DNA of 36,654 nucleotides from the IMG/VR virus record IMGVR_UViG_2778261064_000029. One strand, 5' to 3'. The DNA is from a virus (taxonomy: Duplodnaviria; Heunggongvirae; Uroviricota; Caudoviricetes). Every line of letters begins with the position of its first letter. Position 1 is the stretch's first letter. Below are positions 1 to 36,654 of this stretch, in pieces. The translations under genes and the position numbers were made by a program. Under the pieces are notes generated by a model. That model worked only from the letters and a program-made list of their open reading frames with translations. It ran no database searches and was not told the origin of the DNA.

Positions 1-26
1 AACCTCGGTTTACAGGAAACGGTAAA
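1..26. repeat. gix-like crossover site of the G segment, partial (cut by window edge); perfect inverted repeat of 3081..3106
   Basis: Window 1..26 aacctcggtttacaggaaacggtaaa is the exact reverse complement of 3081..3106; contains TTCCTGTAAACCGAGGTT core that I recall from Gin/Hin-type sites. Confidence 0.8.
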
Positions 27-2056: not shown

Positions 2057-3610
2057 TTAAACGCTCGCTACATTATACCAGGTGCCATTTATATACTTTT
2101 GAACGGGTCTGTAATAAACGCCCGCTATATTATCGGCAGAGTTGGACCCTGTATCCTGAACATTAATACCAGACAATACATGACCTGACGGGCACTGGAA
2201 ATTCCATGTTTGCCAGTTGTTCACACCATAATATTGCTGTGAACCAAGTCGAACATCGTGCACGCCGATTTGTCTGAGGTAAGATGACAACCATCCTCCC
2301 CATGCAGTACCATTAATGTCACCATTCGATGCCAAAGTCGCTCCACCGGCAATTACCGGACCTGGCGAAAAAAATGATTTGTCGTTCGGGTTAAACTGCC
2401 ATAAGGCTCCATTGCCGTTATCGCCACACACATGAATACATGGTACCGGGAATCCCTGCTGTTCAGTCAGCAAATAGCCAAAACTGACGGCTCCCGGATA
2501 CCCCTGTCCATTGCGAATGGACAAGCCCTTAACTATCGGCACGTAATGACCACCAGGAGAGGGATTCCAGGCAAACTGCGTCTGAACAAAAGGCGCAGTG
2601 GCATTATTCAACTGGTCTGCAAATGCGCCACTTCCATCAGGAATTATTCCCTGATGAATATATGCAACCCGCTTATAAAAATCAGCAGATGCGGGTTGAA
2701 GCCCAAATGCCAGTTGTCCATTTGAATAGAATAAAAGGACACCGTCGCCGCCCTGTTTAATACCAGTGTCGTTATCTCCGAGAGTAATGGAATTACCGCC
2801 CAGTGCGTTATCTGTACCAAGCGCCAGCCCACCATCAATTTTGGCCCCGTGGCTGACAGATATAGCACCTGTTCTCAGATTTATAGCGAATGGCCTTAAT
2901 GGGCCGATATCACCGTTTTCGCCTTGTCCTTCAGCCGTCGGAATGAAATGAAGAAAATCTTCTGAACGACGGAAAATAAGACCGAAGGCATCATTGAAAA
3001 TTCGCAGCGCATTCATCGTGCCAATTTTCAGTTCTCCGGTCATTTTATCGCCGGAACGCTGAACGGCGTTACCAGCCCTGTTTACCGTTTCCTGTAAACC
3101 GAGGTTTTGGATAAACAGCGGCTTATTGGGAATATCTGCTCCGTTCCGGTCTTTTGCCAGACGGGCATTAGCATTATCCATCGCAATTTTCACCGCTTTT
3201 GCGGTGGCTGCCAGCGTTTCACTGGGGCTGTCAGTGGCACTGGTTAGCTGAACGAGTCCTTTTTTGTTCAGGCTGGCATCATAGATATCCAGATTTTCAC
3301 GTGCTGTACGCTGTGCTGATGCCCCGGCAGTTTTAATTTCGCTGAGGTTATTTTTTATCAGCAGCGCGTTATTGCTCATAATGGCTTTAATGGACAGTGC
3401 AAGCTGGTTTAATTTTGTTTTATCCGGTTGAATACCGGCTTCTTCCAGCGTGTTTAATAACTCCGCCTGCACAATATTAAACCAGTCCATGCCGGGCCAT
3501 GTGATAACATTATTCCCGTTACCTTCTGAAAACCAGCGAACGATAGCACTACGCTGGGCGGATACGGGCGGCATGACGGTTACGCCGCTGTCGTTATCAA
3601 TATAAAACAT
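2057..3610 (-). CDS. S: Tail fibre protein (Mu S-like), constant part 3115..3610 fused to variable part 2057..3088 in the captured G orientation
   Basis: 517 aa; gix site lies inside the coding sequence at 3081..3114 (encoding ...[14 protein letters not shown]...); Gly/Asn-rich C-terminal receptor-binding region. Confidence 0.9.
3081..3114. repeat. gix-like crossover site inside the S gene (Sc/Sv junction)
   Basis: Inverted repeat partner of window 1..26; ttcctgtaaaccgaggttttggataa at 3089..3114. Confidence 0.8.
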
Positions 3611-7380: not shown

Positions 7381-8860
7381 TAATCACCTCAATACTGACA
7401 CCACCGGGAACAAACAACGGGTTGCTGATACCGTTCCTGCGGGCCAGCCGTTGCCAGTTCCGGCTGTTTCCTGTGTAACGGTACAGGGCCACCATTGCAG
7501 GCATCGTCTCCGGCAGGCGGTGCGTTTCACTGCCCGCCAGTTGCAGCCCGCGTTTTTCCAGGTCGGCAACAACCAGCAGACGCAGTTGCGTAAGCTGAAC
7601 GCTGTCTGTCGAAAAGCCCTGCTCAGATGCCGTCAGAATGACGGTATCCAGTGCAGCCCCCAGCATGGCGGCTGTTTTTCCGATATCGGACACACTTTCA
7701 AATACCGGGGGCGTGGCTGTACCACTGTCTGAAAAGGATACCTGTGAAAAGCCGCCGTCCGGGGTTATGGCAGTTAACTGTAACTGTCCCTGTGTGACGG
7801 TAGCAGATGTGCTGCTGGCCCCGCTGGCTGTGCCGGTTGTGGTGGACGGGGCATCCAGTACAGGTGCACGGGCGGCATTATCCATCCGGCGACTGAAATC
7901 CAGTGCCGCAGTCAGTGCCTGGCTGGCAGCTTCTGCCCGGTATGTCTGCGCCGCTGCCAGCATGACGTAGTTCAGTGTGGCAATATTTTTTTCTGCAACC
8001 GGACTGTTGTACGAGGTTGTGATTGTCCCCTGTCTGCCTGCGGTGGCGGCATGGCGACGTTCTAATCGCTGCGCCAGACGGTTCCATGTGGAAAATGCTG
8101 TCCGGGTATCGCATAACGATGAAACGCCGGACAGCGCCCCCATCAGCGAGGAGGCCAGCATGGCAGGCTGGTTAATCAGGCTGGTCACAGAGCCTTTCAT
8201 CGCAGAAAGCGATCCCATCAGACCGCTGACAGTCTGCGTAACCCCCAGATTGTCCACCGCATCACTGATATCATCGATGACACCGGTTACAGCTTCCATC
8301 ACGGCGGTTGCCGCCGCAGTGCCATCTTTTACGGTCTGCCAGACAGAGGACAGCGTATCTCCCAGAGAACCGGTTACAGCAACAGCCTGTGCCGGTACGG
8401 CTGCACTGGTGTCTGTTTCTGCGTCCGGGGCAGTATCCTGCAACGACGGATAAACGGTAACGGTGAACGCGTAATAATTCAGTTCATCCGCTTTAGTGCG
8501 GCATTCCCATGAATCCACCATGACGTCCACAGTGCCGAAATCAGGATGTACCAGCTCACCGCTGCCCGGAGCATCAAGAGCATCCATCAGCGCACCCGCT
8601 TCATCTCTGGCTGTTTCTGCGTTGCTGTTCAGAATGCAGGCGCTGAATGTACGGGAGCGAAGCTTTTTCCCCAGGTCATTGACGCCGCCGGTATCACGTA
8701 ACGGGTACTCACGTTTAACCAGGCGACGTCCGCCAGCCTGTTTTTGCTCCTCGATGACGAGAAACGGCACGTTACGGAACGTGCCTTTGCCGGTTGTTTT
8801 CCTGCCTCCACCGGTTTTATCCCGGACAGCATTAACGGCATTTAAAGCATCTTCAAACAT
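7373..8860 (-). CDS. N: DNA circularisation protein (Mu N-like)
   Basis: 495 aa; immediately downstream of tape measure gene; Ser/Thr/Ala-rich C-terminal half. Confidence 0.8.
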
Positions 8861-8864
8861 GGTT

Positions 8865-10937
8865 TTACCAGCCCGTAATGTAGTTATCGCCCGCGTAAAT
8901 ATTCAGCCCCATACCGTCCTCGGTGACGCGGGAACTGGTCAGACGTAACCCCTCGCCAAGTTCGACGCGCAGCGAGGCTTCCGCATTCACTTTTTGCTCC
9001 TGCGGCTCCTTATCCGGGGCCGTCCATTTCTGATACAGGTCGGTTACAAAACCGCCCAGATACTCCCCGGCGACACTGCCCAGCGTGGCACCGGCAACCG
9101 TACCCAGCGGTCCGGCAAGGCTGCCAACGGCACCGCCGAGCCATGCACCGGCTGTACTGCCAATTGCGCCTGCTTTTTCATGGGTTGACGCCTGCTCATC
9201 CATCAGGACGGGGGCAAGCTGGAGTGCCCCCATTACCGGGCCACCCAGACGTGACAACGCACGACCGGCACCTTTCCCCATCCAGCCCAGCGCCCCGGCA
9301 CCTTTTGTCACAACCCGACCGATCGCACTGCCTGCAAGTTTGTTTCCGATACCGGAAAACCACCCGCCAACAGCACGCCCGGCATCAGCCAGCTTTCCGA
9401 CCGTTCCCGTAACCAGTTGCCCGGCAGCACTGCCTGCAAGCCTGCTCAGAAGACCGGATTTACCGGGTAAAGGTAATGGTGCAGGCCGTGCCGTTACCGG
9501 TACGCCGGGTGGGGGTAATGCCAGTACAGGGCGTGGTGCAGGTAATGCCAGCGGCTGTGGCCCGGACAGCAATAACGGCTGGCGGGGTAACAGCTGGGCC
9601 ATTCTTCCGCCGCTCCGTCCGCGACGACCGCCGCCACTCCCGTAGCCACCAAATCCACGGGGCCAGTTGATGACAAACACACGCTGAATGCCGATACCCT
9701 GCAACAGCGTCTCAGACGTCATGGCATCCGGGACCGGCAGACCTGCCTGCCCACGTTTGCGGTTTCGCATCCAGCGCCACATACGACGCCCGGTTTTAAA
9801 CGGATAACTGGCAACCTGCCATGAGGGTTTTGCCACGGCCCAGCCTGCTCTCAGGGCTTTATTGGCAAGCCAGACAGACACCAGAACAGCAGCCAGTTTT
9901 TTCAGGCTGACAATATTCTGGTCAACCCATGCCAGCGCATCTTTACCCGGTTTCAGCCAGCGCCATAATTCCTGCGCCGCGATTTTTACCGTTCTGAACG
10001 TGGTCAGAAATTTCTGACCAATGTTTTCTGCCAGTGCGTCAAGTTCCCCGGATTTATCCGCCATGTCGTGCCAGTTAAGCACCCGGCGCATCTCGTTCTT
10101 GATTTCTTCAAAGGGGCCGCTGTTTGCCACCTTTATGCGAAATTCAAGCAGGTTAGCTTCCATCTGGGCGAACATCCCGTCCCAGGAGTTCATCGCACTG
10201 GCCTGTGCACCTTTTGACTGTTCTGACAGCGTTCTGAATACCGTCAGAATGGATTTCATGCCCAGCTTGCCCTTTGTACCCAGATCACGGATTTTTTTAA
10301 CGTCCGTTCCCGTTGCATCCGCCAGCGCCTGATAAACGTTGATACCGTAACCGGTCAGCAGGTTGGCATCCGCCGCTGTGATTTGCTGGCGGGCAAACAT
10401 CTGTTTCAGTTGCAGTGAGGCACCCTGTGCAGTGGGTAAATCCCAGCCGTGCATGGCCCCCTGATCCTGCAACATGGTGATGAACTGTTTCGTCTGTTCA
10501 TCCGTCATGCCGAAGCCTTTCGACGAACGGATCTCATCAAGGACACCACTCAGCCCCCACGTGGTGTCCTTCGCGTTCTGCTTCGCCCAGGCCATCATGG
10601 CCTGCGCTCTGACCTTATCGCCGTGATACAGCGAGTTCATGGCGATGATCTGTTGCTCACGCTGGGCGGCTGCACCAATAAACAGTTTATTGGCGGTGTA
10701 ACCCACGCCAGCGATACCCAGCGCCCCGGCTGACAGCATTCGGAATGTACGGGTTGACAGTGAACCCATTCTGTCAATGGCACCAGAAACGCGCACAACC
10801 TCCATACGCAGGGCACGAAGGGAACTTTGCCCGCTACGGGACAGGGCGTTTATCTGGTTCGAATACTGGCGGGAACGCCGGGAAAGATTGCCATTAAGAT
10901 CAATAATGACAGACGCCTTTAAGCGTTTCCCGGTCAT
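8865..10937 (-). CDS. Tail tape measure protein
   Basis: 690 aa; long helical N-terminal half, Pro-rich linker and Gly/Ala-rich C-terminal repeats; position between tube/chaperone and baseplate genes. Confidence 0.85.
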
Positions 10938-15012: not shown

Positions 15013-15930
15013 TTACAGGTAGTCAGCGACAACCAGTTGCAGCTTGCCCTTCATCTCGTTGGAGACGGTGGTATTGCCATCCGCGAACAGCTCACGGTTA
15101 AGCAGTTGCTCTGCGGCTTTTTCCAGCCCGACCGGTACAACGATATGCGTCGGCTTCAGGCCCAGCTTCTTACCGCCATCACCTTCAAAAGATCGCATCA
15201 GTTGCCAGCCCTTCCAGAGGTTATCCAGCGTCAGATCGCCTTTTACCGCGACAGCCATCTGCCAGAAGCCGTAACCGGCAGCACGGCGGGCGCTGGCACC
15301 AAACAGGAACTCGTTATCCATAAAAACGTGGTCGTCATCGATACGGGTACGTGCGACCAGTTCCGGTTTGCGGCGCTCCTGGAAAATCAGCGGTTTGACT
15401 GCGCGGGAGCAGTCCAGCAGATAGAATGGCAGACCGCTGAAGCTGTCCTGTTCAACGATGTTGGAGGTATTCGTTGCGTCGCCCGTGCCGTCCACATTCG
15501 GATATACCGGATGCTCCTTGTCGAAGAAGTTCTGACCGTCATAGCAGGGCTGGGTAAAGCCATCTTTCAGAAGTTTAAAAATCAGCTCATCCGGCTGAAC
15601 TGCCGCAGAACGCCCCATCTCCTGAAAAATCGGCGCATAAATACCCAGATTGTCATCCTCGAAGTCATCACGGGAAATACCCACGGTGCCTTCAAACGTT
15701 TTATTGGCGATGGAGTAGCCATGCGCTTCCATTTGCTGAATGGTTCGCTTACCCACCCATTCTTTCATGGCAGGGAATTTACCCAGCCAGCCATAGGTAT
15801 TACTGCGGGTGGAAGAGTTCACCACCATTGCAATTTTGCTGTACTGCGACGGGGCGTCTTCAAGACCGCCCTGAAAATCCTTACGCCAGGAGGTCATCAG
15901 GGCTTTAATGGATGCCGGGGTGACAATCAT
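15013..15930 (-). CDS. T: Major capsid protein (Mu T-like)
   Basis: 305 aa; ATGA overlap with protease/scaffold gene; followed by hairpin. Confidence 0.9.
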   Translation of the reverse strand: MIVTPASIKALMTSWRKDFQGGLEDAPSQYSKIAMVVNSSTRSNTYGWLGKFPAMKEWVGKRTIQQMEAHGYSIANKTFEGTVGISRDDFEDDNLGIYAPIFQEMGRSAAVQPDELIFKLLKDGFTQPCYDGQNFFDKEHPVYPNVDGTGDATNTSNIVEQDSFSGLPFYLLDCSRAVKPLIFQERRKPELVARTRIDDDHVFMDNEFLFGASARRAAGYGFWQMAVAVKGDLTLDNLWKGWQLMRSFEGDGGKKLGLKPTHIVVPVGLEKAAEQLLNRELFADGNTTVSNEMKGKLQLVVADYL

Positions 15931-17012
15931 TTTTCTTGTTCCTGTTTCATTTTCAGATACTCAGCCTCTGTAATGCCGAGCGCCTTCACTGCTGCCTGTT
16001 CATCAGCAGACAGCACCGCCACAGCCGTTTTTTCCTGCGACGGGATTTTCGCTGTGGTGGTCTGCATGGCAGATAACGCAGCGATGGGCTGTTTTTTCTC
16101 AAGCTGTGCCGACAGTGCCGCCACGCCAATCTGACCGCCAAGCTGTTCCAGATAGGCACGTTCGCTTTTGAAAATGCGGCCTTCCTGTTCCGCCTTGTCC
16201 AGAACGGCGCTCAGGCTGGCTGTGGCGCTTAGTGCAGTCGCCTGTGCCAGTTCATCACGCAGGGCGTTGTAGCTTTCCACCGGGACGTATTTCGTCAGGT
16301 CAACGGCGGCTTTCTGTGCCTTTTCCAGTTCGGCGGATAACGACGCCACTTTTCCGGCATCTGTTTCGAGCGCATCAAGCGCACTCAGGGCCGCGCTGGC
16401 CTGTTCATCGGTGATGTCTGCATTTTCGGGGACAGTCACCCCAAGACGCGCAAGCAGCTTGCGCAGCGTTTCATTCATGGGTTTGTTCTCCTGTTGAAGG
16501 ATGTCGGGAAGGTCTGCCGCCAGTGCGGTCAGCTTTTTCATGCCGGTGGCACCGGGGTCATTGGTCAGCGCAGCAAGGCGGATTTGCAGCACCGCACCGG
16601 TGGCGGTGTCATACGGAAAAACCGCAGAGAGATAACCAAATTCGCCGTCATCGATGCGCTGCTGGGCCGCCGCCGTCCAGCGTGGGTGGATAAATAACCC
16701 TTCACCTTCACGCCACTGCATTTCATCGGCGTTAAACCAGCCAGCCGCGACGAGTTGTTCCGGGGGTAATCCTTTGTCCTTACGTAGCTGGTTATGCTCG
16801 TAATCAATCAGCACGTCCTGGTTGAGCGCGCGAACGCCTTCAACCAGACGCCCGGCAATCTCACCGTCGATGAACCACCCCTGACCACCTGTCACATCAA
16901 ACGGGCGACCATCACGGGCACTGAAATGACCGGCAGGCAATAGCTGGCACCAGCCGTTATCGTCAATGGACAGCGCATTCAGTGCGGCAATGCCAATCGC
17001 GTGTTTTTTCAT
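15927..17012 (-). CDS. I: Prohead protease fused to scaffold (Mu I-like); C-terminal Ala/Glu/Leu/Lys-rich coiled-coil region
   Basis: 361 aa; N-terminal globular domain plus C-terminal low-complexity helical region (…EKAQKAAVDL…SAQLEKKQ…). Confidence 0.85.
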   Translation of the reverse strand: MKKHAIGIAALNALSIDDNGWCQLLPAGHFSARDGRPFDVTGGQGWFIDGEIAGRLVEGVRALNQDVLIDYEHNQLRKDKGLPPEQLVAAGWFNADEMQWREGEGLFIHPRWTAAAQQRIDDGEFGYLSAVFPYDTATGAVLQIRLAALTNDPGATGMKKLTALAADLPDILQQENKPMNETLRKLLARLGVTVPENADITDEQASAALSALDALETDAGKVASLSAELEKAQKAAVDLTKYVPVESYNALRDELAQATALSATASLSAVLDKAEQEGRIFKSERAYLEQLGGQIGVAALSAQLEKKQPIAALSAMQTTTAKIPSQEKTAVAVLSADEQAAVKALGITEAEYLKMKQEQEK

Positions 17013-17208
17013 GTCCTGCTGCTCATCATGGTTTGTGAGCAGTCAGTTTGCGGGAGGTGCGGGAAAATCTGGGGTTATGCTATTTGAGTAATGGAGAAAG
17101 AAAGTGAAAGGAAGATAAAACGGGATTCATACACCGTTAAATACCGGTTTAAAAATCCCGTGGCGCGTTTTAAAAAATCTGTGCGGCTGATTTCATGTCT
17201 GATTCCGT
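17013..17208 (-). promoter_or_regulatory. G-I intergenic region: expected late promoter (P_I, C-dependent) and candidate central strong gyrase site
   Basis: 196-bp non-coding gap in an otherwise overlapping operon, about 18.3-18.5 kb from the left terminus (prophage centre). Confidence 0.4.
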
Positions 17209-17679
17209 TTATTGCCTCAGAGCGGCGCTGACGCGTTTTCTGATGGCATCAAAAATTTCCTGTTCCCCGGTCTTATCCAGCCCCATATAAGGACGCGCAG
17301 GAACGCCTGCCGGGCGGGGTGCCATATCGGGTGTACCGCCCCACTGATGAATGGCAGCATAAATTTTTGGCGAACCAATCAGGGCATAATCCTGTCCATA
17401 ATCGGTGGTAATGCTGCGTGCCAGATCGCCATGCAGGGTAAGAATACTGCCCGGAACAAAACCATGATCCTGACGCCATGCCTGCCACGAATCGCTCCAC
17501 GCTTCCCAGCCTTTCCCTGTATCCGGGTCTGCCTGCCGTTCAAATGCCTGTTCCGTGGATGACAGCAGCGCCGCAGCCATCACACGGGGAATGGCGCGGT
17601 CACGTGTAACGGTTCCCAGTTCATCCAGTGCAAGCTGAATACGTCGCACATCCACGGCAACGTTCATATCAAGACTCAC
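17209..17679 (-). CDS. Virion morphogenesis protein (Mu G-like)
   Basis: 156 aa; GTG start at 17679 preceded by GGAGGTG; overlaps stop of upstream gene. Confidence 0.75.
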   Translation of the reverse strand: MSLDMNVAVDVRRIQLALDELGTVTRDRAIPRVMAAALLSSTEQAFERQADPDTGKGWEAWSDSWQAWRQDHGFVPGSILTLHGDLARSITTDYGQDYALIGSPKIYAAIHQWGGTPDMAPRPAGVPARPYMGLDKTGEQEIFDAIRKRVSAALRQ

Positions 17680-18995
17680 TTATTCACCTCCACATGCCCC
17701 TCCAGTACGTCAATTATCCCGTCAGCAATCGCGGCTTCAAGCGACTGTGCAGATACGCGGCTGATACTGACCAGCACATCCGCACGGTCATTCTGTCTGC
17801 CGACTGTCTGTGATGTTCTGACCACAATCCGGGCCATGCCGTCACGGGTTGCCACAACATACAGCAACTGGTGGTTCTCCCTGTCCCACAATACCGCCTG
17901 TGGTTTTGCCATCAGCGACGGCAGACGCTGTAAATCCTCCGGTTTCAGGGCGGCATCAGAAGTGGTCGCCAGACTTTTCCCGTTCATCACAAGCAGACGG
18001 GCTGGCATATTCCCGGTGCGCTGATATACGGCCTCCGCCACGGATCCCGTCATAAAACCCAGCGCACGGACCTCATGTCCTGCCCGGCGTGATTTCGCCA
18101 GACGTTTAAGCCAGAGGGAAAAAGCAAGCTGACGCTCCCGGCTGTTATTCAGCGTCTGAACAACCTGCTCACGCAGCTGCGCGTCACGAACTTCCACCAG
18201 TTTTCGAATCAGTGCCTGATCCGTACCAAATGCCGCCGAACCGGGGTTATATGACCAGCCCACATCTGGCGTCATTTTTACCCGACCGTTGTCAAACGTG
18301 GTTGACGATGTGCGGAAAATCTCTCCGGTGCTTTCATCCGTACCGGCATCCACTTCGCGGGTATTCATGAATGACGCACCATAACTGACCTGTAGCCCCA
18401 GTTCTTTCATGCGGGCCGCAGACAGCGCCCGGACGCGACAGCGGCAGTTCCAGCCATTGGGCGGGTAATGCGTCTGCCAGAAAATGTCGTCATACCGGAA
18501 AACCATATTGTGCAGCCGCGCATGTTCCGGGCGTGTTCTGCCATCCATAACGGCAACGTACTGCCAGTACGGGTACAAATCGGCGGTATTCATCATCTGC
18601 GCATAACGTCCTGCCCCATACGCCGTACGGGTATTGACGTTATAAATGGTTGCCAGACGACGCGGACTGCCCAGTTCGATTTCCTTCGCGTTTCCCTCTG
18701 CATCCACGATGATTTGTTTTCCCCACCATCCGAGTTTTTGCAGCCGGGGGGCCAGTGTGCGGGTAAATTCCTCACGGGTGATGCCTTCACTGACAGCCCG
18801 CTCCACTTCCTCACGGATTGTGGTCAGGACATCCATCCGGGTGGCTTTGGCAACGGTAAAGGCGCGGGCGTGCGCGTCTGCCAGTTGTTCGTACCAGTTC
18901 CAGGTGATGTTGTAGCCTTTGGCGCGGAAATACGCGACAGCCTCCTTTGGCGGGAGGCGTGCGGCATACGCCAGATCAATGGTCTGCTGCGGCAT
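17676..18995 (-). CDS. Head morphogenesis protein (Mu F-like); ORF track extends to GTG 19031, ATG at 18995 preferred
   Basis: 439-451 aa immediately downstream of portal gene. Confidence 0.8.
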   Translation of the reverse strand: MPQQTIDLAYAARLPPKEAVAYFRAKGYNITWNWYEQLADAHARAFTVAKATRMDVLTTIREEVERAVSEGITREEFTRTLAPRLQKLGWWGKQIIVDAEGNAKEIELGSPRRLATIYNVNTRTAYGAGRYAQMMNTADLYPYWQYVAVMDGRTRPEHARLHNMVFRYDDIFWQTHYPPNGWNCRCRVRALSAARMKELGLQVSYGASFMNTREVDAGTDESTGEIFRTSSTTFDNGRVKMTPDVGWSYNPGSAAFGTDQALIRKLVEVRDAQLREQVVQTLNNSRERQLAFSLWLKRLAKSRRAGHEVRALGFMTGSVAEAVYQRTGNMPARLLVMNGKSLATTSDAALKPEDLQRLPSLMAKPQAVLWDRENHQLLYVVATRDGMARIVVRTSQTVGRQNDRADVLVSISRVSAQSLEAAIADGIIDVLEGHVEVNK

Positions 18996-24661: not shown

Positions 24662-24688
24662 AAATAACCGGCAGGATGCCGGTTATTT
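24662..24688 (-). terminator. Perfect 12-bp-arm hairpin overlapping the C stop codon (middle-transcript terminator or P_lys-associated structure)
   Basis: aaataaccggca-gga-tgccggttattt. Confidence 0.35.
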
Positions 24689-25105
24689 TGGGCTTTCAGG
24701 TGAGAACAGATCAGGCTGATGACGTCGTGTATGCAGCTTTCTCTGGCGGGCAATAATCTGGTAGATCTGCGGCTGGGACAGGCGGTACTGGCGACGCAGT
24801 TCTTCCATGTTACGACCATTAAACTGGCAGTAAAGCAAATCGTCGCGTAACGCGGTCAGGATCGTATCGCCGCAGGGGATGTAAAACTGCCGTCCACCCA
24901 GAAAACAGGACAGGGCAACGGCCTGTTTACGGGCAAGTTCACGGGGATTGCTGACGTTCTGGCGTTTCAGTTCGTTTTCCAGAACATCAATCAGATCAAC
25001 CACCGAACGGGGCCAGCGTGATTCCAGTTCCGGGGCCGGGATGTTATCAATATGTCCGATTAACTGGCGAATTGCCGGATCGTGTTCAAATAAATCATGC
25101 TGCAT
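24683..25105 (-). CDS. C: Late transcription activator C (Mor/C family)
   Basis: 140 aa; paralogous to Mor in the window (LGGRQFYIPCGD vs LGGGQVYIPRGQ; FNGRNMEEL vs FNGRNVHEL). Confidence 0.9.
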   Translation of the reverse strand: MQHDLFEHDPAIRQLIGHIDNIPAPELESRWPRSVVDLIDVLENELKRQNVSNPRELARKQAVALSCFLGGRQFYIPCGDTILTALRDDLLYCQFNGRNMEELRRQYRLSQPQIYQIIARQRKLHTRRHQPDLFSPESPK

Positions 25106-25237: not shown

Positions 25238-25448
25238 GGTATTTTTCTCTGTAACGCCGGCAATGGTGGATAATTTCTGGCATATCAACGGACTGCCAGC
25301 CTTTCATGTAATAACTTCCGTGGGTGCCATCGTGCCCTGTGTAATCCATTGGCTTTGGTGGTGGGCCTCCGGCCTCCCGATGTAATACCTCCTGTCGTAA
25401 ACGTTCACGCCTGCCGAACTGAAAGGACGCATCCCACCCTTTACCCAT
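25218..25448 (-). CDS. Hypothetical protein, 76 aa (ATG 25448 preferred over track start 25502)
   Basis: ATG begins 3 nt after the stop of the upstream GH108-like gene (coupling). Confidence 0.5.
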   Translation of the reverse strand: MGKGWDASFQFGRRERLRQEVLHREAGGPPPKPMDYTGHDGTHGSYYMKGWQSVDMPEIIHHCRRYREKYHVQKIQ

Positions 25449-26001
25449 GCAGAACCTCCCGACAGGCGCTGGCGAGCAGATCCAGACGGTTAAACCAGCC
25501 ATTCAGATATTTCCCCTGCGAGGCACTGGATTTGATAATCCCTGCGTAATAGCGGGAACGACGCAGGAAGCACTGCAACAGCAGCCAGTCAGTATCGGCA
25601 CGCAGAACGGCTGCGCGTGTGTTTTTACCGACGATGCCATCATCATCAACACCTGCTGCCGCCTGGAGGATCTGAATCGCGCGTTTAACACCGTGCTGAA
25701 CGGCAGCATCAAAAACGAATAAGGAAACGCCATCAGGCCATTCGTTACACTTTGCCGCCAGCCAGTAATCACGCCAGTAGATCTGCGCCGCCTGCTCGCG
25801 GGTTAAATCCTTAATGCGGGTATCAGGTTTTCCGTCACCGTTAACATCGGTTTTGCCATCAATAACGCCGTCGCGACGGTCAGAAATACCGTATTTCGTT
25901 TCGCCGCCACGGTCGGCAGGATCATTAACATAGCCACCTTCAACATCAGGGCGTATAACGAAATTCAGCGAATGAAGGAATGCAGGGGAAAACTCAGGCA
26001 T
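25441..26001 (-). CDS. Peptidoglycan hydrolase candidate, GH108-type N-terminal motif plus peptidoglycan-binding-like C-terminal region
   Basis: EGGYVNDPADRGGETKYGIS motif near the N-terminus, then IYWRDYW; AGGAGG RBS 6 nt upstream; first gene after the early terminator. Confidence 0.75.
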   Translation of the reverse strand: MPEFSPAFLHSLNFVIRPDVEGGYVNDPADRGGETKYGISDRRDGVIDGKTDVNGDGKPDTRIKDLTREQAAQIYWRDYWLAAKCNEWPDGVSLFVFDAAVQHGVKRAIQILQAAAGVDDDGIVGKNTRAAVLRADTDWLLLQCFLRRSRYYAGIIKSSASQGKYLNGWFNRLDLLASACREVLHG

Positions 26002-26053
26002 GTTGCCCTCCTGTCATGAACGTTTTATCGTCACAACAGAATATTGAGGGCGT

Positions 26054-27598: not shown

Positions 27599-27903
27599 TT
27601 TGCGGCCCTCAGAATAAATTCAGGATAAAATTTCAGACTCATTTGCCGTAACACATCCAGTGCAGCAACGGCTGCTGATTTATCGTTGCCATCAGCAATA
27701 GCGCGGAGATTTTCAATAATCCAGTGAGGACTCAGTGACTCAGCAATAATGCCAAACCGGTACGCCATGACCTCATCAATAGCTTTTTCATGAGACGGCT
27801 CATATACAAAATTCACAAAGTCATGCACTTCTTTTTTCGGCAAACCACCGGCAATCAGCAGGGCGGCAAGCTCTTCTGATTTTGAAAATACACCATTATT
27901 CAT
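27595..27903 (-). CDS. Early accessory protein, unknown function (ATG 27903 preferred over GTG 27918)
   Basis: About 102 aa; AAGGTGAG upstream. Confidence 0.6.
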   Translation of the reverse strand: MNNGVFSKSEELAALLIAGGLPKKEVHDFVNFVYEPSHEKAIDEVMAYRFGIIAESLSPHWIIENLRAIADGNDKSAAVAALDVLRQMSLKFYPEFILRAAK

Positions 27904-32238: not shown

Positions 32239-34245
32239 TTAAATGACTTTTTTACGTCTGTTCTGTTCCAGAATATCCAGTGAATGATTCAGATATTCAT
32301 CACGATCAGTTTCATATTCATCATCGGCTTCCTGGTATTTCACCTGCACCGTGTTACCGGAAGGCCGGAAAATACCAACAACCCTTGATTCTGGTGCTGC
32401 TGGTTCGGCTATCTGCGGCAGCAGTTCAGCAACTTCCAGCGCGTCCATTTGTTTCTGCGCCTTAATGGCTGCTTTAGTTGCAGATTTCAGTTGTTTCTGG
32501 CGGCGGCGATATTCACGGCCTGCCGCTGCATCATTAAATGCAACAGGTGCCAGACATTCCGCTTCACAGATAAACCGACCGTCCAGGGTGTAACAATAAA
32601 CCGTGCTGTGTAGCTGCTGCGGATCAAACCTGACCACAACTTTTTTCACGCCGGCATTCATTAATGCCATGTTGTAATAAACGTTTTTTGCGCCTTTAAG
32701 GGAGCCGCCAACTTTAAGCGTAAACTCGCCTTTGCGTGAAACGTTCACCGCCTCGGCAGGCAGTAACAGCATCCGTTTTTGTTCTTCGGTTGGCTTACGC
32801 ACAATCGTTCTGGCGTATTCACGCTCGAAAACATCATCAAACGAGAGTTTGCCCCCGCACATTTCTGTTTCACGGCCTGTTCTGGCATTGAACATCGCCA
32901 CACCTTCGGCAAGGGTTTTCAGAAACAGCTCTGCATCAACAGCGCGGTCGCCATAGTTATCAGGTTTTGCCTGCGGATTTGGCCCCGTATATGCGCCAGC
33001 CAGTGCCGGATGCTTATCAACGTATTCCTCAAGCCCACCAACACCGAAAGCACGTTCAACAGGTTTTGCCTGGCCCCAGCCTTTACCGGCAACAACGCTT
33101 GTCCAGTGCATTTTCGCGCCCATCAGTAAAAACAGTCCCTTTGGATCGTCCTCTTTTACCTTAAAGCGGTAACGATTGGGCGCGCCCCCCGTCAGCCATT
33201 TATTCGCTGCACCACGGGTGTTATCAATGGTGATGTGAAAATCCTCCGGGATGCCGTAGCGTGTCACCACATCCATAAACGAGAGGCGAATTGAGTCGAT
33301 GTTCTCGCTTACATCGCAACGCCAGCCCAGAATTTTTCGGGTTTTCACATCCTGCCAGAACCATGTTTTCGGGCGGATCACATCACCGTTAAACCAGCGT
33401 ACAAAGACGTTATGCAGATAACCGTCGCCGTTGATCCACTGCATGGCGTCCAGGTGTTCCACAGTTCGCTGCTGTGCCGGTATCAGATGCATCAGTGCAT
33501 GTTCACCTTCACGACAGGCAACAACCATTGCCTCGTCCAGTTGCTGAATCCGGCGAAAGGCCGTGGCACGGGAGGGAATACTCCAGCCATGCTCGCGGGC
33601 TGCCAGTTCCAGACGCTCATAACATTTGCGGAAGGCGGGCTTTTCCGGTCGCAGATAATCTGCAATCAGAAACTGCCAGGCATCCTCGTCAAATTCACTT
33701 TTGTGAACGTTGCGACGGGATGCACCACGTCCATCAACAAGCGCAGCCGCCCAGTCAGGCTTCGCAAACTTCTGTACCTGGTAATACTTGTCCCGCAAAG
33801 TGGATGCGCTGACCTGGTAATGCCCTGCAACGGTCGCAAAAGCCGTTTTTGTTGAAATCCCCTGGTTCAGCATTTCGTCTGCGGCCTGAACCGCAGGCAA
33901 CCATTTTTCAGCAAGTCTGCGCTGGGAATCGCTGGCGTTATCCCATTTGCTCCACAGTGCCTCACGATCATAATCATGGGCTTCCAGCGTGGGGCGGGCG
34001 ATTTCAAAACGGCCCTGGCTTGTTTCGATCTCTCCTTGTCTAAGCAACAACGCAGCTTGCGTTTCCTTTGGTAAAGATGAGATATGAAACTCATAGGCTA
34101 CTCCTCTTACCCCGTGTATCTGTCGAAACACCCACTGTTCTAACCTTGCTTTACGAGAGATCGCGCTAGAGGATTTTGGAAGACCTATCAGCCCTTCTAA
34201 TTTCTTTGCAGAAAACCAATCATTACATTGTGGTTGCATTTTCAA
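32239..34245 (-). CDS. A: DDE transposase MuA
   Basis: 668 aa; N-terminal domain paralogous to c repressor N-terminus; ATGA overlap with ner. Confidence 0.95.
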
Positions 34246-34460
34246 TACCTCGAAGGCCAGATGTCTCGTGGCTCAACTCCCAATGCATCGGCAATGATTC
34301 TTTCCCCCCGAGGGTAAGGTTTATCCAAGGCATTTTTTACCGTAGAGATAGAGAGACCGTTCTCACGACCAAGAGCTGCTAGGCTTTTTCCTCTTTTGCG
34401 CAGATCAGCAACAATGTCGTATCTACTTTTGTCTTCACATTTACTTTTCTTTATCGCCAT
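34242..34460 (-). CDS. ner: Ner-like DNA-binding early regulator (ATG 34460; track start 34469 is TTG)
   Basis: 72 aa from [72 protein letters not shown]; resembles Ner C-terminal ...IIANAL...IWPSRY. Confidence 0.85.
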
Positions 34461-34660
34461 AAAATGCAATCCTCACAAGCTACGCCATCAGCTACGCCGC
34501 AAGGTAGCTGATAAGGTATGCAGCAATGCTAGTGTGAATACATTGTCAATGCAATAGTGTATTCAAATGTTTTGTTTGAAATTCATCTATCTCGATGATT
34601 TTAAAGTGAATATATTTTTCATTTCTTTGAATACATCGTGTATTTAAAGCGAGGTTTGTG
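34461..34660. promoter_or_regulatory. Divergent early/repressor promoter-operator region (Pe leftward for ner-A-B, Pc rightward for c), expected to overlap the transposition enhancer
   Basis: 200-bp AT-rich interval between divergent ner and c; AGCTAC repeats at 34478..34510 and TGAATACA / GTGTATTC repeats at 34534..34567 and 34626..34645. Confidence 0.7.
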
Positions 34661-35176
34661 ATGACACAAGAATGGTTTTCAGCTAAAGAGCTACAAGGGG
34701 TTGCTGGTCTTCCGTCTTCAGCAAGTAGTATTAGCCGCAAAGCAACTAATGAGGGATGGAAAAAGAGACAGATCAAAGGAGTAAAGGGTGTTGCTTATGA
34801 ATACCATATCAGCTCATTACCTGATGCCACTCAGGCAGAATTAGGAGGGGCGCAGTTATTAGATAACGATAAGTCAGCTTATAAGTTAGCTTCTGTGTTA
34901 ATGGCTTTGGTTGCAGAGTTAGAACCAGAGGAAATCCAGAGGGCATTAAAGCTACTTAGTAAAGGTGGACTTAGTGCACTAATGCCAAGTATCTTTGATC
35001 AGACTCAAATCCAATCTCTGCACGGCGTATCGCGTGAGTGCATACAACTCGCCCAAATGCTAGAAACTTTACCAGCAGAAGAGCGCAAAGAGATTTTGTC
35101 AGAGCATGGTATTCATGAACAGGAAGGTCTTGTAGCTCCTTCGCAAGAACCACAAGATGTAAAAAAAGCCGTATAA
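34661..35176 (+). CDS. c: Repressor c (immunity repressor)
   Basis: 171 aa from ATG 34661 (GAGG 5 nt upstream); N-terminal domain paralogous to MuA N-terminus; C-terminus ...[27 protein letters not shown]. Confidence 0.85.
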
Positions 35177-35339
35177 CAACCATGAACCAGCTAAAACATA
35201 CTTCACCTCACATAATCACACATGTAACATACCTAAACGGCATGAGCTGATTTGTGATATGAGTCATTTGGTTACAGCCTGGTTGTTATCGGTTTTGAAC
35301 GTTTTTTGAAGCTGTTATTGAAATGATTTGCAGTGTTTT

Positions 35340-35514
35340 TGTTTTTCGTATTTTCAATGAAACAAAAGCAATTTTTTACTATCTTTCGCGTTTCATTGAT
35401 TAACGACTAAAATTTGCGCTACAGGCTTGCAAGCCCCACCAAATCTAATCCCATCAGATCCCGAATAATCCAATGTCCTCCCGGTTTTTTTCGTACTTCA
35501 AGTGAATCAATACA
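35340..35514 (-). repeat. Left-end attachment region with three MuA end-binding repeat units (L1-L3-like) and terminal 5'-TG
   Basis: Repeats around 35340..35368, 35386..35414 and 35487..35510 share the YGTTTCAYT...CGAAA pattern on the minus strand; last prophage base 35514. Confidence 0.85.
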
Positions 35515-35749
35515 ATAAAATATTCCATCTATCGTTTGTTAAAAGCGTAGATAACCACTTATTTAACAACTTGAAAATAAGGTATTTTACCTGGGTTGTT
35601 ACAAAAGGATTGCATTGCGTAAACGCTTTTTATTTACAAAAAAATGGGGAAGTGTTACAGCGATTGCGAAAAGTCTGAAGCAATTGAATTAAGATAATAT
35701 AGAAAATCAGATACAGCAAAAATGGCAGATTGATGAGGTGAAGATAAAT

Positions 35750-35823
35750 TGGAGCGGGCGAAGGGAATCGAACCCTCGTATAGAGCTTGGGAAGCTCTCG
35801 TTCTACCATTGAACTACGCCCGC
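35750..35823 (-). tRNA. glyU: tRNA-Gly (anticodon CCC)
   Basis: Reverse complement gives GCGGGCGTAGTTCAATGGTAGAACGAGAGCTTCCCAAGCTCTATACGAGGGTTCGATTCCCTTCGCCCGCTCCA, 74 nt, 7-bp acceptor stem, CCA end. Confidence 0.95.
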
Positions 35824-35840
35824 TTCGAGATGCGTAAGGC

Positions 35841-35868
35841 ATTATAAACCTTACGCTCTCCTTAGCAA
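35841..35868 (-). promoter_or_regulatory. Candidate sigma70 promoter of the tRNA-Gly gene
   Basis: Minus strand TTGCTA (-35), 16-nt spacer, TATAAT (-10), GC-rich discriminator; about 15 nt upstream of mature tRNA 5' end. Confidence 0.5.
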
Positions 35869-35901
35869 GTGCCGCGCTGCTGACTGCTGATTAATTCGCC
35901 A

Positions 35902-36654
35902 TCAGCATTTTGGCTTGCTGCCCTGAGGCGGCAAGTAACGTAGCGGATCAATTGCCGTTGCACGGTAACGAATCTGGAAATGCAGGCGAACCGATGCCGC
36001 ATCAGTGCTCCCCATAGTGGCGATTTTTTGCCCAGCCTTCACGCTTTGCCCATTATTTACCAGCATCGTGTCATTATGGGCGTAAGCCGTAATGTAATCT
36101 TCACTGTGTTTAATCATGATGAGATTACCGTAGCCACGCAGCTGGTTGCCCACATACACCACCTTTCCTGCACCCGCGGCGTAAATAGGTGTACCCCGTG
36201 GAGCTGAGATATCAATCCCTTTATTGCCGCCATCAGCTGTCGAATACGGCATGATAACTTTCCCTGTCGTTGGCCATAACCAACAACGTTGCCCTACTGG
36301 CGGCCAGGAAGATTTTGGTACTGCTGATGACGGTGTAACCGATGCGGTTTTGGTCGTTGATTTGGCGGTTGATTTACGTGTACTGCTACTTTTCGCCCCA
36401 CCCAGTTTTAGTTTCTGACCAACTTCAATGGTGTAAGGGGGGGAAATGCCGTTCAGCCGCGCCAGCTCTTTTACGCTGGTTCCCGTGGTGCGCGAAATAC
36501 GATATAGCGTATCCCCCCGTTTCACGGTGTAAACGGAGCCGGAATACGTTCCTGTATCGGATGATTTGCTACCCGAACAGCCCGCCAAAAGCAGTCCAAC
36601 CGATAACAACATCACGATACCCAGAGATTTTTTATTCAGGCGTCCCGCACTCAA
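35902..36654 (-). CDS. ygeR: Host lipoprotein with LysM domain and M23 peptidase domain (YgeR/NlpD-like); reaches the window edge, so the 5' end may be incomplete (track start is TTG)
   Basis: Lipobox LLLAGCSG; LysM YTVKRGDTLYRISRTTGTSVKELARLNGI; M23-like C-terminal half. Confidence 0.8.
   Translation of the reverse strand: MSAGRLNKKSLGIVMLLSVGLLLAGCSGSKSSDTGTYSGSVYTVKRGDTLYRISRTTGTSVKELARLNGISPPYTIEVGQKLKLGGAKSSSTRKSTAKSTTKTASVTPSSAVPKSSWPPVGQRCWLWPTTGKVIMPYSTADGGNKGIDISAPRGTPIYAAGAGKVVYVGNQLRGYGNLIMIKHSEDYITAYAHNDTMLVNNGQSVKAGQKIATMGSTDAASVRLHFQIRYRATAIDPLRYLPPQGSKPKC

What the first reader, a model, noticed from the sequence alone, without database searches (positions are those of the whole stretch)
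17013..17208. Central non-coding gap between G and I: candidate strong gyrase site plus late promoter
Almost all late genes overlap or abut, but here there is a 196-bp non-coding interval about 18.3-18.5 kb from the left end, near the prophage centre. In Mu a strong gyrase site needed for efficient replicative transposition maps to the genome centre between G and I, and the C-dependent promoter P_I is also there.
Basis: partly seen in the sequence, partly recalled or inferred. Interest (0 to 1): 0.45.

Follow-up and report, generated by a model that had tools for sequence, protein, structure and literature searches.

The report
Phage Mu gyrase site and promoter

Summary
Window 17013-17208 (genes on the minus strand) is a 196-bp gap between G (PF05069) and I (PF10123). 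It is the largest gap in the late region and lies 18,307-18,502 bp from the prophage left end at 35514.

The gap is colinear with phage Mu 17860-18055 and 192/196 identical. The Mu GenBank record annotates three features there:
- gyrase cut site, window 17189^17188
- predicted terminator, window 17160-17115
- C-dependent late promoter P_I, window 17091-17025

Three substitutions lie 6, 10 and 18 bp left of the cut. Two recur in phage D108; all three occur in Yersinia phage vB_YpM_5 and an E. coli prophage, so they are natural alleles. The SGS right arm, which the literature calls essential, is identical to Mu. The fourth substitution is at -53 of P_I, just outside the region required in Plys.

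Three diverged Mu-like prophages have a 175-201 bp gap in the same place. Each keeps three phased TTTRA tracts (spacing 20-21 and 11-12) and an ATAAxCCC box 20 nt upstream of a -10 hexamer.

Activator C is encoded in the window (139/140 aa). No small gene or Rfam RNA is supported.

Verdict: already known; low interest. Function is inferred from identity and was not measured here.

The parts
17209..17679 (-). Gene G (Mup31, virion morphogenesis / neck protein). Its last ~40 bp also form the SGS left arm.
   Evidence: 156-aa ORF. PF05069 E 1.6e-42. 1 aa difference from Mu G.
17102..17251 (.). Strong gyrase site (SGS), whole ~150-bp footprint, inferred by coordinate transfer from Mu. Left arm about 17212-17251 (-65..-26), gate segment about 17162-17211 (-25..+25), right arm about 17102-17161 (+26..+85).
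   Evidence: Anatomy from PMC6463007, mapped with Mu position = 35068 - window position. 147/150 identical to Mu. The right arm is 60/60 identical.
17185..17188 (-). Gyrase cleavage tetrad AGCC. The top-strand cut is between window 17189 and 17188. The bottom-strand cut, inferred from the 4-bp stagger, is between 17185 and 17184.
   Evidence: 'gyrase cut site' 17879^17880 in AF083977 and NC_000929. The sequence AAATC^AGCC^GCACAG is identical in the window.
17194..17206 (.). Three substitutions relative to Mu (17206 A>G, 17198 G>A, 17194 A>G on the phage strand), in the left half of the gate segment.
   Evidence: The 17198 and 17194 alleles are shared with D108, Mu_3F6 and E. coli 2014C-3075. 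All three are shared with vB_YpM_5 and E. coli 22KM0354.
17137..17174 (-). Three phased A/T tracts (TTTRA at 35, 56 and 68 nt after the G stop; spacing 21 and 12 bp). These are the bending signals of the SGS core and right arm.
   Evidence: Only match to the composite pattern in the 36.6-kb window, both strands. 0.01 expected in Markov simulations, but the pattern was defined after seeing the sequences. The same triplet sits at the same offset in SE11, L016 and L017. 48-bp A/T periodicity ranks 43 of 36,607.
17112..17161 (-). Terminator-like RNA hairpin (9-bp outer stem plus 4-bp inner stem) followed by UUUUAUCUU. Probable end of the lys-to-G late transcript. It overlaps the SGS right arm.
   Evidence: RNA MFE -19.8 kcal/mol, z -2.76; z -3.25 in a longer context. 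TransTermHP terminator in AF083977 at 17908-17953. Missed by the simple scanner because of its large loop.
17025..17091 (-). Late promoter P_I (-53 to +14). 16-bp C-binding element about 17074-17089, conserved ATAACCCC at 17071-17078, -10 hexamer CAAACT at 17045-17050, inferred transcription start near 17038.
   Evidence: 66/67 identical to annotated Mu P_I. In register with Plys, PP and Pmom. Box-20 nt-(-10) spacing is conserved in 4 lineages. No sigma-70 consensus promoter found, consistent with a missing -35. Literature: PMC2582627, PMC4461284.
17013..17024 (-). Ribosome-binding site and spacer in front of the I start codon.
   Evidence: RBS annotated at Mu 18044-18046. Invariant in all 12 Mu-type sequences.
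15927..17012 (-). Gene I (head maturation protease, with the internal scaffold gene Z), first gene of the P_I transcript.
   Evidence: 361-aa ORF. PF10123 E 8e-97. 9 aa differences from Mu I.
24683..25105 (-). Gene C, the trans-acting activator required by P_I.
   Evidence: 140 aa, 139/140 identical to Mu C. Annotation.

Best explanation
The interval is the central regulatory spacer of a Mu-family (Muvirus) prophage of E. coli. It carries three overlapping or adjacent elements.

(1) The strong gyrase site. Host DNA gyrase binds here. It cleaves at ATC^AGCC^G, and the phased A/T tracts of the right arm wrap around a GyrA C-terminal domain. Gyrase then supercoils processively from the middle of the prophage, forming a plectonemic loop that brings the two Mu ends together for transposase synapsis. 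This gives fast replicative transposition after induction.

(2) A hairpin terminator that probably ends the Plys (lys-to-G) late transcript.

(3) The promoter P_I. It has a -10 hexamer and no -35. A dimer of the phage activator C binds it around -43.5 and promotes open-complex formation by sigma-70 RNA polymerase. P_I starts the head-gene transcript at I.

Shown here: position, sequence identity to Mu, conservation of the architecture in relatives, and presence of gene C. Inferred from published work on Mu: gyrase binding and cleavage, the role in replication, C dependence, and the transcription start.
For: - The gap is 192/196 identical and colinear with Mu 17860-18055.
- The Mu records annotate a gyrase cut site, a terminator and late promoter P_I within it.
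- The flanking genes are G (PF05069) and I (PF10123).
- The gap is 18.3-18.5 kb from attL in a prophage of about 37 kb.
- The SGS right arm is identical to Mu. The literature calls its first ~40 nt essential and the left arm dispensable (PMC6463007, PMC13284261).
- Two of the three gate-segment substitutions recur in phage D108, and all three in vB_YpM_5.
- Among 12 Mu-type sequences, diversity is concentrated in the 20 bp between the G stop and the cut (pi 0.089). It is about 0.01 across the cut-to-right-arm stretch, against 0.036 at I third codon positions.
- Three diverged lineages keep a 175-201 bp gap in the same place: E. coli SE11 (gap region about 79% DNA identity), an Enterobacteriaceae MAG (G 69% aa) and Citrobacter braakii (G 55% aa). 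Each has TTTRA tracts at 33-37, 54-57 and 65-68 nt after the G stop, and an ATAAxCCC-like box 20 nt upstream of a -10 hexamer.
- P_I aligns in register with Plys, PP and Pmom.
- C is 139/140 identical to Mu C.
- Published function: SGS deletion delays replication and abolishes the Mu domain (PMC10052514, PMC3820752). P_I needs C in vitro, and C acts at isomerisation (PMC4461284).
Against: - No experiment on this allele exists.
- Three substitutions fall in the gate segment (-8, -12, -20 from the cleavage dyad), which the literature calls critical.
- My sequence-only proxies for gyrase preference place the site high but not first in the window. Correlation with the S/W pattern of the published consensus ranks 86 of about 36,500, and A/T periodicity ranks 43 of 36,607. 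The real Topo-Seq matrix was not available.
- The diversity contrast rests on only 12 related sequences.
- The TTTRA pattern was defined after looking at the sequences.
- The prophage right end is outside the window, so central placement depends partly on Mu's right-end length.
Confidence: 0.93

Rival explanations
1. The gap is only a terminator-plus-promoter spacer in this prophage. The three substitutions in the gate segment have weakened or abolished strong gyrase binding, so the site no longer works as an SGS.
For: All three differences from Mu near the cut fall in the -25..+25 gate segment that PMC6463007 calls critical. Crude motif proxies do not rank the site first.
Against: The cleavage tetrad, the right half of the gate and the whole right arm are identical to Mu. 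The -12 and -8 alleles are those of D108, and all three occur in the isolated phage vB_YpM_5 and in another E. coli prophage, so they segregate in elements that appear functional. Diverged lineages change far more of the gate yet keep the phased tracts.
Confidence: 0.04
2. The gap encodes a small protein. One candidate is the 42-codon 'gene 31.5' annotated in D108 on the phage strand. The other is the 46-aa antisense ORF (window 17091-17231, plus strand) annotated as hypothetical in Mu_3F6.
For: Both are annotated in public records. The antisense ORF has an ATG in the window.
Against: Neither has a Pfam match. The D108 ORF begins at ATC, not a standard start codon. The antisense ATG depends on the polymorphic base 17091; it reads CTG in Mu, D108, YpM_3, PhiR68_1, A20 and A21, and Mu has no ORF of 25 aa or more in that frame. 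Antisense ORFs in SE11, L016 and L017 differ in position, length and sequence, with local alignment scores of 32 or less.
Confidence: 0.02
3. The conserved hairpin and flanks are a structured non-coding RNA with a regulatory role, rather than a DNA-level site.
For: The hairpin is more stable than shuffles (z -2.8 to -3.3).
Against: No Rfam family matches at E of 1 or less. The hairpin is followed by a U-rich tail at the end of an operon, which is what a terminator looks like. Its position and sequence are not conserved in SE11, L016 or L017, whereas the DNA tract phasing is.
Confidence: 0.01

Closest known systems
[quoted passage not shown]
   Same: Same locus, same flanking genes and same 196-bp spacer. 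147/150 identical over the footprint. Identical cleavage tetrad and right arm. Same near-central position.
   Different: Three substitutions at -8, -12 and -20 in the left half of the gate segment. The prophage has a different immunity region and some different early genes, so absolute distances differ by about 450 bp.
Mu late promoter P_I (Margolin, Rao & Howe 1989), one of four C-dependent promoters (Plys, PI, PP, Pmom)
   Same: 66/67 identical from -53 to +14. Same ATAACCCC box, same -10 (CAAACT), same RBS and same distance to the I start codon. Activator C is 139/140 identical.
   Different: T instead of G at -53. T is also the state in SfMu, Mu_3F6, vB_YpM_5 and the three diverged lineages, so reference Mu's G is a within-Muvirus variant (6 of the 12 Mu-type sequences) that none of the diverged lineages shares.
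Phage D108 G-I region
   Same: Shares the window's A and G alleles at Mu 17870 and 17874. Same length and architecture.
   Different: D108 has T at Mu 17862, C at 17961 and 18004, and G at 17977. Its record annotates a doubtful ORF 31.5 in the gap.
Plasmid strong gyrase sites (pSC101 par, pBR322) and the Topo-Seq gyrase motif
   Same: Same principle: a cleavage core flanked by arms with roughly 10.5-bp phased A/T versus G/C content that wrap the GyrA C-terminal domains.
   Different: No sequence homology. The plasmid sites are not central in a transposable element, and according to the literature they do not fully substitute for the Mu SGS.

Membership tests
Mu-type strong gyrase site (SGS) | Sequence homology to the experimentally mapped Mu SGS, including the cleavage site | tested here: met
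   192/196 identical in the gap and 147/150 over -65..+85. AAATC^AGCC^GCACAG is identical.
Mu-type strong gyrase site (SGS) | Lies in the intergenic region between G and I | tested here: met
   G = PF05069 and I = PF10123 flank the gap.
Mu-type strong gyrase site (SGS) | Central position between the two prophage ends | tested here: met
   The cut is 18,326 bp from attL at 35514 and 17,188 bp from the window end, which is Mu 35029. That is 49.3% of an estimated 37.2 kb, and 51.6% if the window end were the prophage end. The right end itself was not seen.
Mu-type strong gyrase site (SGS) | Right arm with phased, anisotropically bendable A/T tracts (first ~40 nt essential) | tested here: met
   Right arm 60/60 identical to Mu. 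TTTRA tracts at spacing 21 and 12, unique in the window and conserved in 3 diverged lineages. Periodicity rank 43 of 36,607. Requirement taken from PMC6463007 and PMC13284261.
Mu-type strong gyrase site (SGS) | Top score in the phage genome with the Topo-Seq gyrase position-weight matrix | tested here: inconclusive
   The matrix (Sutormin 2019, sheet DS10) is cut off in the held supplement. A proxy built from the published consensus ranks the site 86 of about 36,500, not first.
Mu-type strong gyrase site (SGS) | Strong single-site gyrase binding and quinolone-induced cleavage; processive supercoiling | not testable with these tools
   Needs biochemistry or Topo-Seq.
Mu-type strong gyrase site (SGS) | Deletion delays replicative transposition and disrupts end synapsis (the Mu domain) | not testable with these tools
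   Known for Mu (PMC10052514, PMC3820752). Not measured for this prophage.
C-dependent Mu late promoter | Recognisable -10 hexamer and no typical -35 hexamer | tested here: met
   CAAACT at 17045-17050, in register with TAGACT, TATCCT and TAAGAT of Plys, PP and Pmom. No sigma-70 consensus promoter found in 16700-17500. Criterion from PMC2582627.
C-dependent Mu late promoter | C-binding element centred near -43.5 with the conserved ATAAyCCC half-site | tested here: met
   ACTCAAATAGCATAAC with ATAACCCC is identical to Mu P_I and aligned with the other three late promoters. The box-20 nt-(-10) spacing is kept in SE11, L016 and L017. The left half-site is a poor match to TTAT, as in Mu itself.
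C-dependent Mu late promoter | Cognate activator C encoded by the same element | tested here: met
   Window 24683-25105 (-), 139/140 aa identical to Mu C.
C-dependent Mu late promoter | Transcription depends on C and starts about 7 nt after the -10 hexamer | not testable with these tools
   Shown for Mu P_I in vitro (PMC4461284). The start near window 17038 is inferred by register only.
Intrinsic (rho-independent) terminator | G+C-rich hairpin immediately followed by a U tract at the end of an operon | tested here: inconclusive
   Hairpin -19.8 kcal/mol, z -2.76, followed by UUUUAUCUU. Predicted by TransTermHP in the Mu record. The stem is only moderately G+C rich, the loop is large, and the simple scanner finds nothing. 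Hairpins exist in SE11 and L017 but at other positions, and not convincingly in L016.

The most novel reading that the evidence does not exclude
The natural substitutions in the left half of the gate segment (Mu-type G/A versus D108-type A/G at -12/-8, and A/G/T at -20) could form an allelic series that tunes gyrase affinity or processivity, as the laboratory nuB mutations do. That would adapt SGS strength to the supercoiling set-point of different hosts (E. coli, Shigella, Yersinia).

Separately, the fixed-offset TTTRA triplet (about 35, 56 and 67 nt after the G stop) could serve as a simple signature for finding SGSs in distant Mu-like prophages.
Probability: 0.1. Interest if true: 0.3.

Novelty: already known. 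Interest (0 to 1): 0.08.

Why it matters
It matters mainly as a correct annotation. The prophage has the cis-acting site it needs for efficient replicative transposition, in the right place, together with an intact late promoter and its activator. This fits an inducible, functional Mu relative rather than a decayed one.

The comparison across four lineages also shows which features of the SGS are under constraint: tract phasing and distance from G, rather than the sequence between the tracts. That agrees with the published indirect-readout model but adds nothing new in principle.

Tried and rejected
- The primary papers (Pato 1990 PMC55030, Oram & Pato 2004 PMC438558, Oram 2006 PMC1347280) are not held. 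SGS anatomy was therefore taken from later open-access papers that cite them.
- The Topo-Seq gyrase matrix (sheet DS10) is cut off in the stored supplement.
- I built a proxy from the S/W pattern of the published 133-bp consensus. The raw match score is dominated by G+C content and ranks the SGS about 1000th. The composition-corrected correlation ranks it 86th, and 64- and 80-bp periodicity windows rank it 317th and 1088th. I treat these as weakly supportive only.
- The built-in promoter/terminator scanner found nothing in 16700-17500. That is expected for an activator-dependent promoter and a large-loop hairpin.
- The Rfam search found nothing.
- A search for the source genome through the attL-host junction found no complete E. 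coli genome with this insertion, so the right end could not be recovered.
- The genome-contig scan with G returned only two loci.
- My first guess at the Mu right-end sequence gave no hit. The right end proved to be outside the window.
- The small-ORF readings were examined and rejected.

Full report
**What the window is.** The late genes run on the minus strand. The window is 98.4% identical to phage Mu without gaps over Mu 9828-32005. It is 96-99% identical over most of its length to D108, SfMu, PhiR68_1 and several Yersinia-plated Muviruses.

The Mu left end sequence is at window 35514. Bases 35515-36654 are E. coli chromosome, 100% identical to a sequenced strain, carrying tRNA-Gly(CCC) and actS. 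Window position 1 corresponds to Mu 35029, just past the right boundary of the invertible G segment. So gin, com, mom and the right end are missing. In the late region the coordinate map is Mu position = 35068 minus window position.

**Checking the observation.** G (156 aa, PF05069) is at 17209-17679 and I (361 aa, PF10123) is at 15927-17012. The non-coding interval between them is exactly 17013-17208, 196 bp. All Mu late genes map onto the window as intact ORFs. The intergenic distances are:
- G-I: 196 bp
- C-lys: 94 bp (this gap holds Plys)
- T-gp35: 66 bp
- all others: 14 bp or less, or overlapping

**What the interval is.** It aligns base for base with Mu 17860-18055 and differs at four positions: window 17206, 17198, 17194 and 17091. 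GenBank AF083977 annotates these features in that stretch:

| Feature | Mu coordinates | Window coordinates |
|---|---|---|
| Gyrase cut site | 17879^17880 | 17189^17188 |
| TransTermHP terminator | 17908-17953 | 17160-17115 |
| Late promoter (PMID 2522923) | 17977-18043 | 17091-17025 |
| RBS | 18044-18046 | 17024-17022 |
| I start codon | 18056 | 17012 |

RefSeq NC_000929 also carries the cut site.

**The gyrase site.** Published anatomy (PMC6463007) describes three parts:
- a left arm at -65 to -26, which is dispensable
- a gate segment at -25 to +25
- a right arm at +26 to +85, whose first ~40 nt are essential

[quoted passage not shown] PMC11626157 shows the right arm wrapped on a GyrA C-terminal domain, with A/T minor grooves facing the protein.

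Transferred to the window, the footprint is about 17102-17251, so the left arm lies inside the 3' end of G. The cleavage tetrad, the right half of the gate and all 60 bp of the right arm are identical to Mu. The three nearby substitutions sit 6, 10 and 18 bp left of the top-strand cut.

These substitutions are not private to this prophage. The A and G at Mu 17870 and 17874 are the D108, Mu_3F6 and E. coli 2014C-3075 alleles. All three occur in Yersinia phage vB_YpM_5 and E. coli 22KM0354. I infer that they are tolerated natural variants.

Among 12 Mu-type sequences, nucleotide diversity varies as follows:
- 0.089 in the 20 bp between the G stop and the cut
- about 0.01 from the cut through the right arm
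- 0.036 at third codon positions of I

The sample is small and the sequences are related, so this is only suggestive.

**Diverged relatives.** Forty-four of 5,426 complete E. coli genomes carry this region. Three of them are only about 79% identical; I fetched two, SE11 and TUM9757. A scan of one genome per species with the G protein added two more: an Enterobacteriaceae MAG (G 69% aa identity) and Citrobacter braakii (55%).

All of them have a gap of 175-201 bp after G. Most of the gap sequence has diverged. Each lineage nevertheless has TTTRA tracts starting 33-37, 54-57 and 65-68 nt after the G stop, with spacings of 20-21 and 11-12 bp. That composite pattern occurs once in the whole window on either strand, against 0.01 expected in Markov simulations. 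I defined the pattern after seeing the sequences, so this number overstates the significance. In SE11 and the MAG, the motif ATC|ACGC also sits where Mu is cut.

This agrees with the published view that gyrase reads phased bendability rather than base identity.

**Proxies for gyrase preference.** The Topo-Seq matrix is not in the held supplement. I used the S/W pattern of the published consensus and A/T periodicity instead. The SGS falls in the top 0.1-0.3% of window positions but is not first. I count this as inconclusive.

**The promoter.** The four annotated Mu late promoters align in register, with a shared ATAAyCCC box and a -10 hexamer of the form xAxxxT. By the Pmom landmarks in PMC2582627, the 67-mers run from -53 to +14.

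The window's P_I is 66/67 identical to Mu's. The one change, G to T, is at -53, one base outside the -52 to -34 region shown to be needed in Plys. T is also the base in SfMu, Mu_3F6, vB_YpM_5 and all three diverged lineages. The box-20 nt-(-10) spacing is kept in all four lineages. The window's Plys and PP are 66/67 and 67/67 identical to Mu's, and gene C is 139/140 identical.

PMC4461284 shows that Mu P_I gives no transcript without C in vitro, and that C acts at open-complex formation. PMC12867686 adds that C works with the sliding clamp. The transcription start near window 17038 is inferred by register only.

**The hairpin.** RNA from 17161-17120 folds into a 9+4 bp hairpin (-19.8 kcal/mol, z -2.8 to -3.3) followed by UUUUAUCUU. 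This matches the terminator predicted in the Mu record. It overlaps the second and third A/T tracts of the SGS. Hairpins occur in SE11 and C. braakii but at other positions, and not clearly in the MAG. I read it as a probable terminator for the lys-to-G transcript, with moderate confidence.

**Rivals.** There is no Rfam match. D108's 'gene 31.5' starts at ATC and has no family match. The antisense 46-aa ORF (17091-17231) owes its ATG to the polymorphic base at 17091, is absent from Mu itself, and has no conserved counterpart in the diverged lineages. The idea that the three gate substitutions have killed the site is unlikely, because they occur in isolated phages.

**Verdict.** The element is the Mu SGS plus P_I, which are among the best-studied features of this phage. 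It is already known and of low interest. All functional statements are inferences from near-identity to Mu and from conserved architecture. Nothing was measured on this allele.

Noticed in passing
window 1-5 (corresponds to Mu 35029-35025): The window stops 4 bp past the annotated right boundary of the invertible G segment. gin, com, mom and attR are therefore missing. This looks like an assembly or contig break at the G-segment inverted repeat.
   Followed up: partly
window 34077-35057: The immunity region (c repressor and ner side) has no megablast match to Mu. However, 34700-35514 is 99.9% identical to prophages in E. coli 2014C-3075 and MIN10. This is a Mu relative that probably has a different immunity specificity.
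   Followed up: partly
window 25240-26036 and 27601-27894: A segment of about 800 bp replaces Mu 9218-9828 (gp18-gp20). About 290 bp are extra relative to Mu near 7660. These are mosaic differences in the semi-essential early/middle region.
   Followed up: no
window 2119-3063 and 1-2119: The C-terminal, host-range part of tail fibre S has no match to Mu. The rest of the G segment is only 89.8% identical, against 98.4% for the other late genes.
   Followed up: no
window 17091 (P_I position -53): T in the window, SfMu, Mu_3F6, vB_YpM_5 and three diverged lineages, all of which read TTAsT 13 nt upstream of the ATAAxCCC box. Reference Mu has G. This may mark a conserved upstream element of P_I at -53 to -49.
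   Followed up: partly
window 17187 (Mu 17881): The 133-bp 'Mu SGS' fragment used by Sutormin et al. 2019 (Table S2) differs from GenBank Mu by one base inside the cleavage tetrad. It is presumably the nuB allele carried by plasmid pMP1000. The window has the reference base.
   Followed up: partly
window 35515-35823: The Mu left end abuts the first bases of a glycoside hydrolase family 15 gene, next to tRNA-Gly(CCC) at 35750-35823 and actS at 35902-36654. No complete E. coli genome in the collection has a Mu at this junction.
   Followed up: yes
window 16341-16397 (I residues 206-224): Seven of the nine amino-acid differences between this I protein and Mu I cluster in residues 206-224, shortly after the internal start of scaffold protein Z.
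   Followed up: no
L017 2045-2080 (Citrobacter braakii): This lineage has a fourth phased TTTGAA tract followed directly by a strong 11-bp hairpin (z -3.3). Here the terminator-like hairpin lies beside the tracts rather than around them as in Mu.
   Followed up: partly
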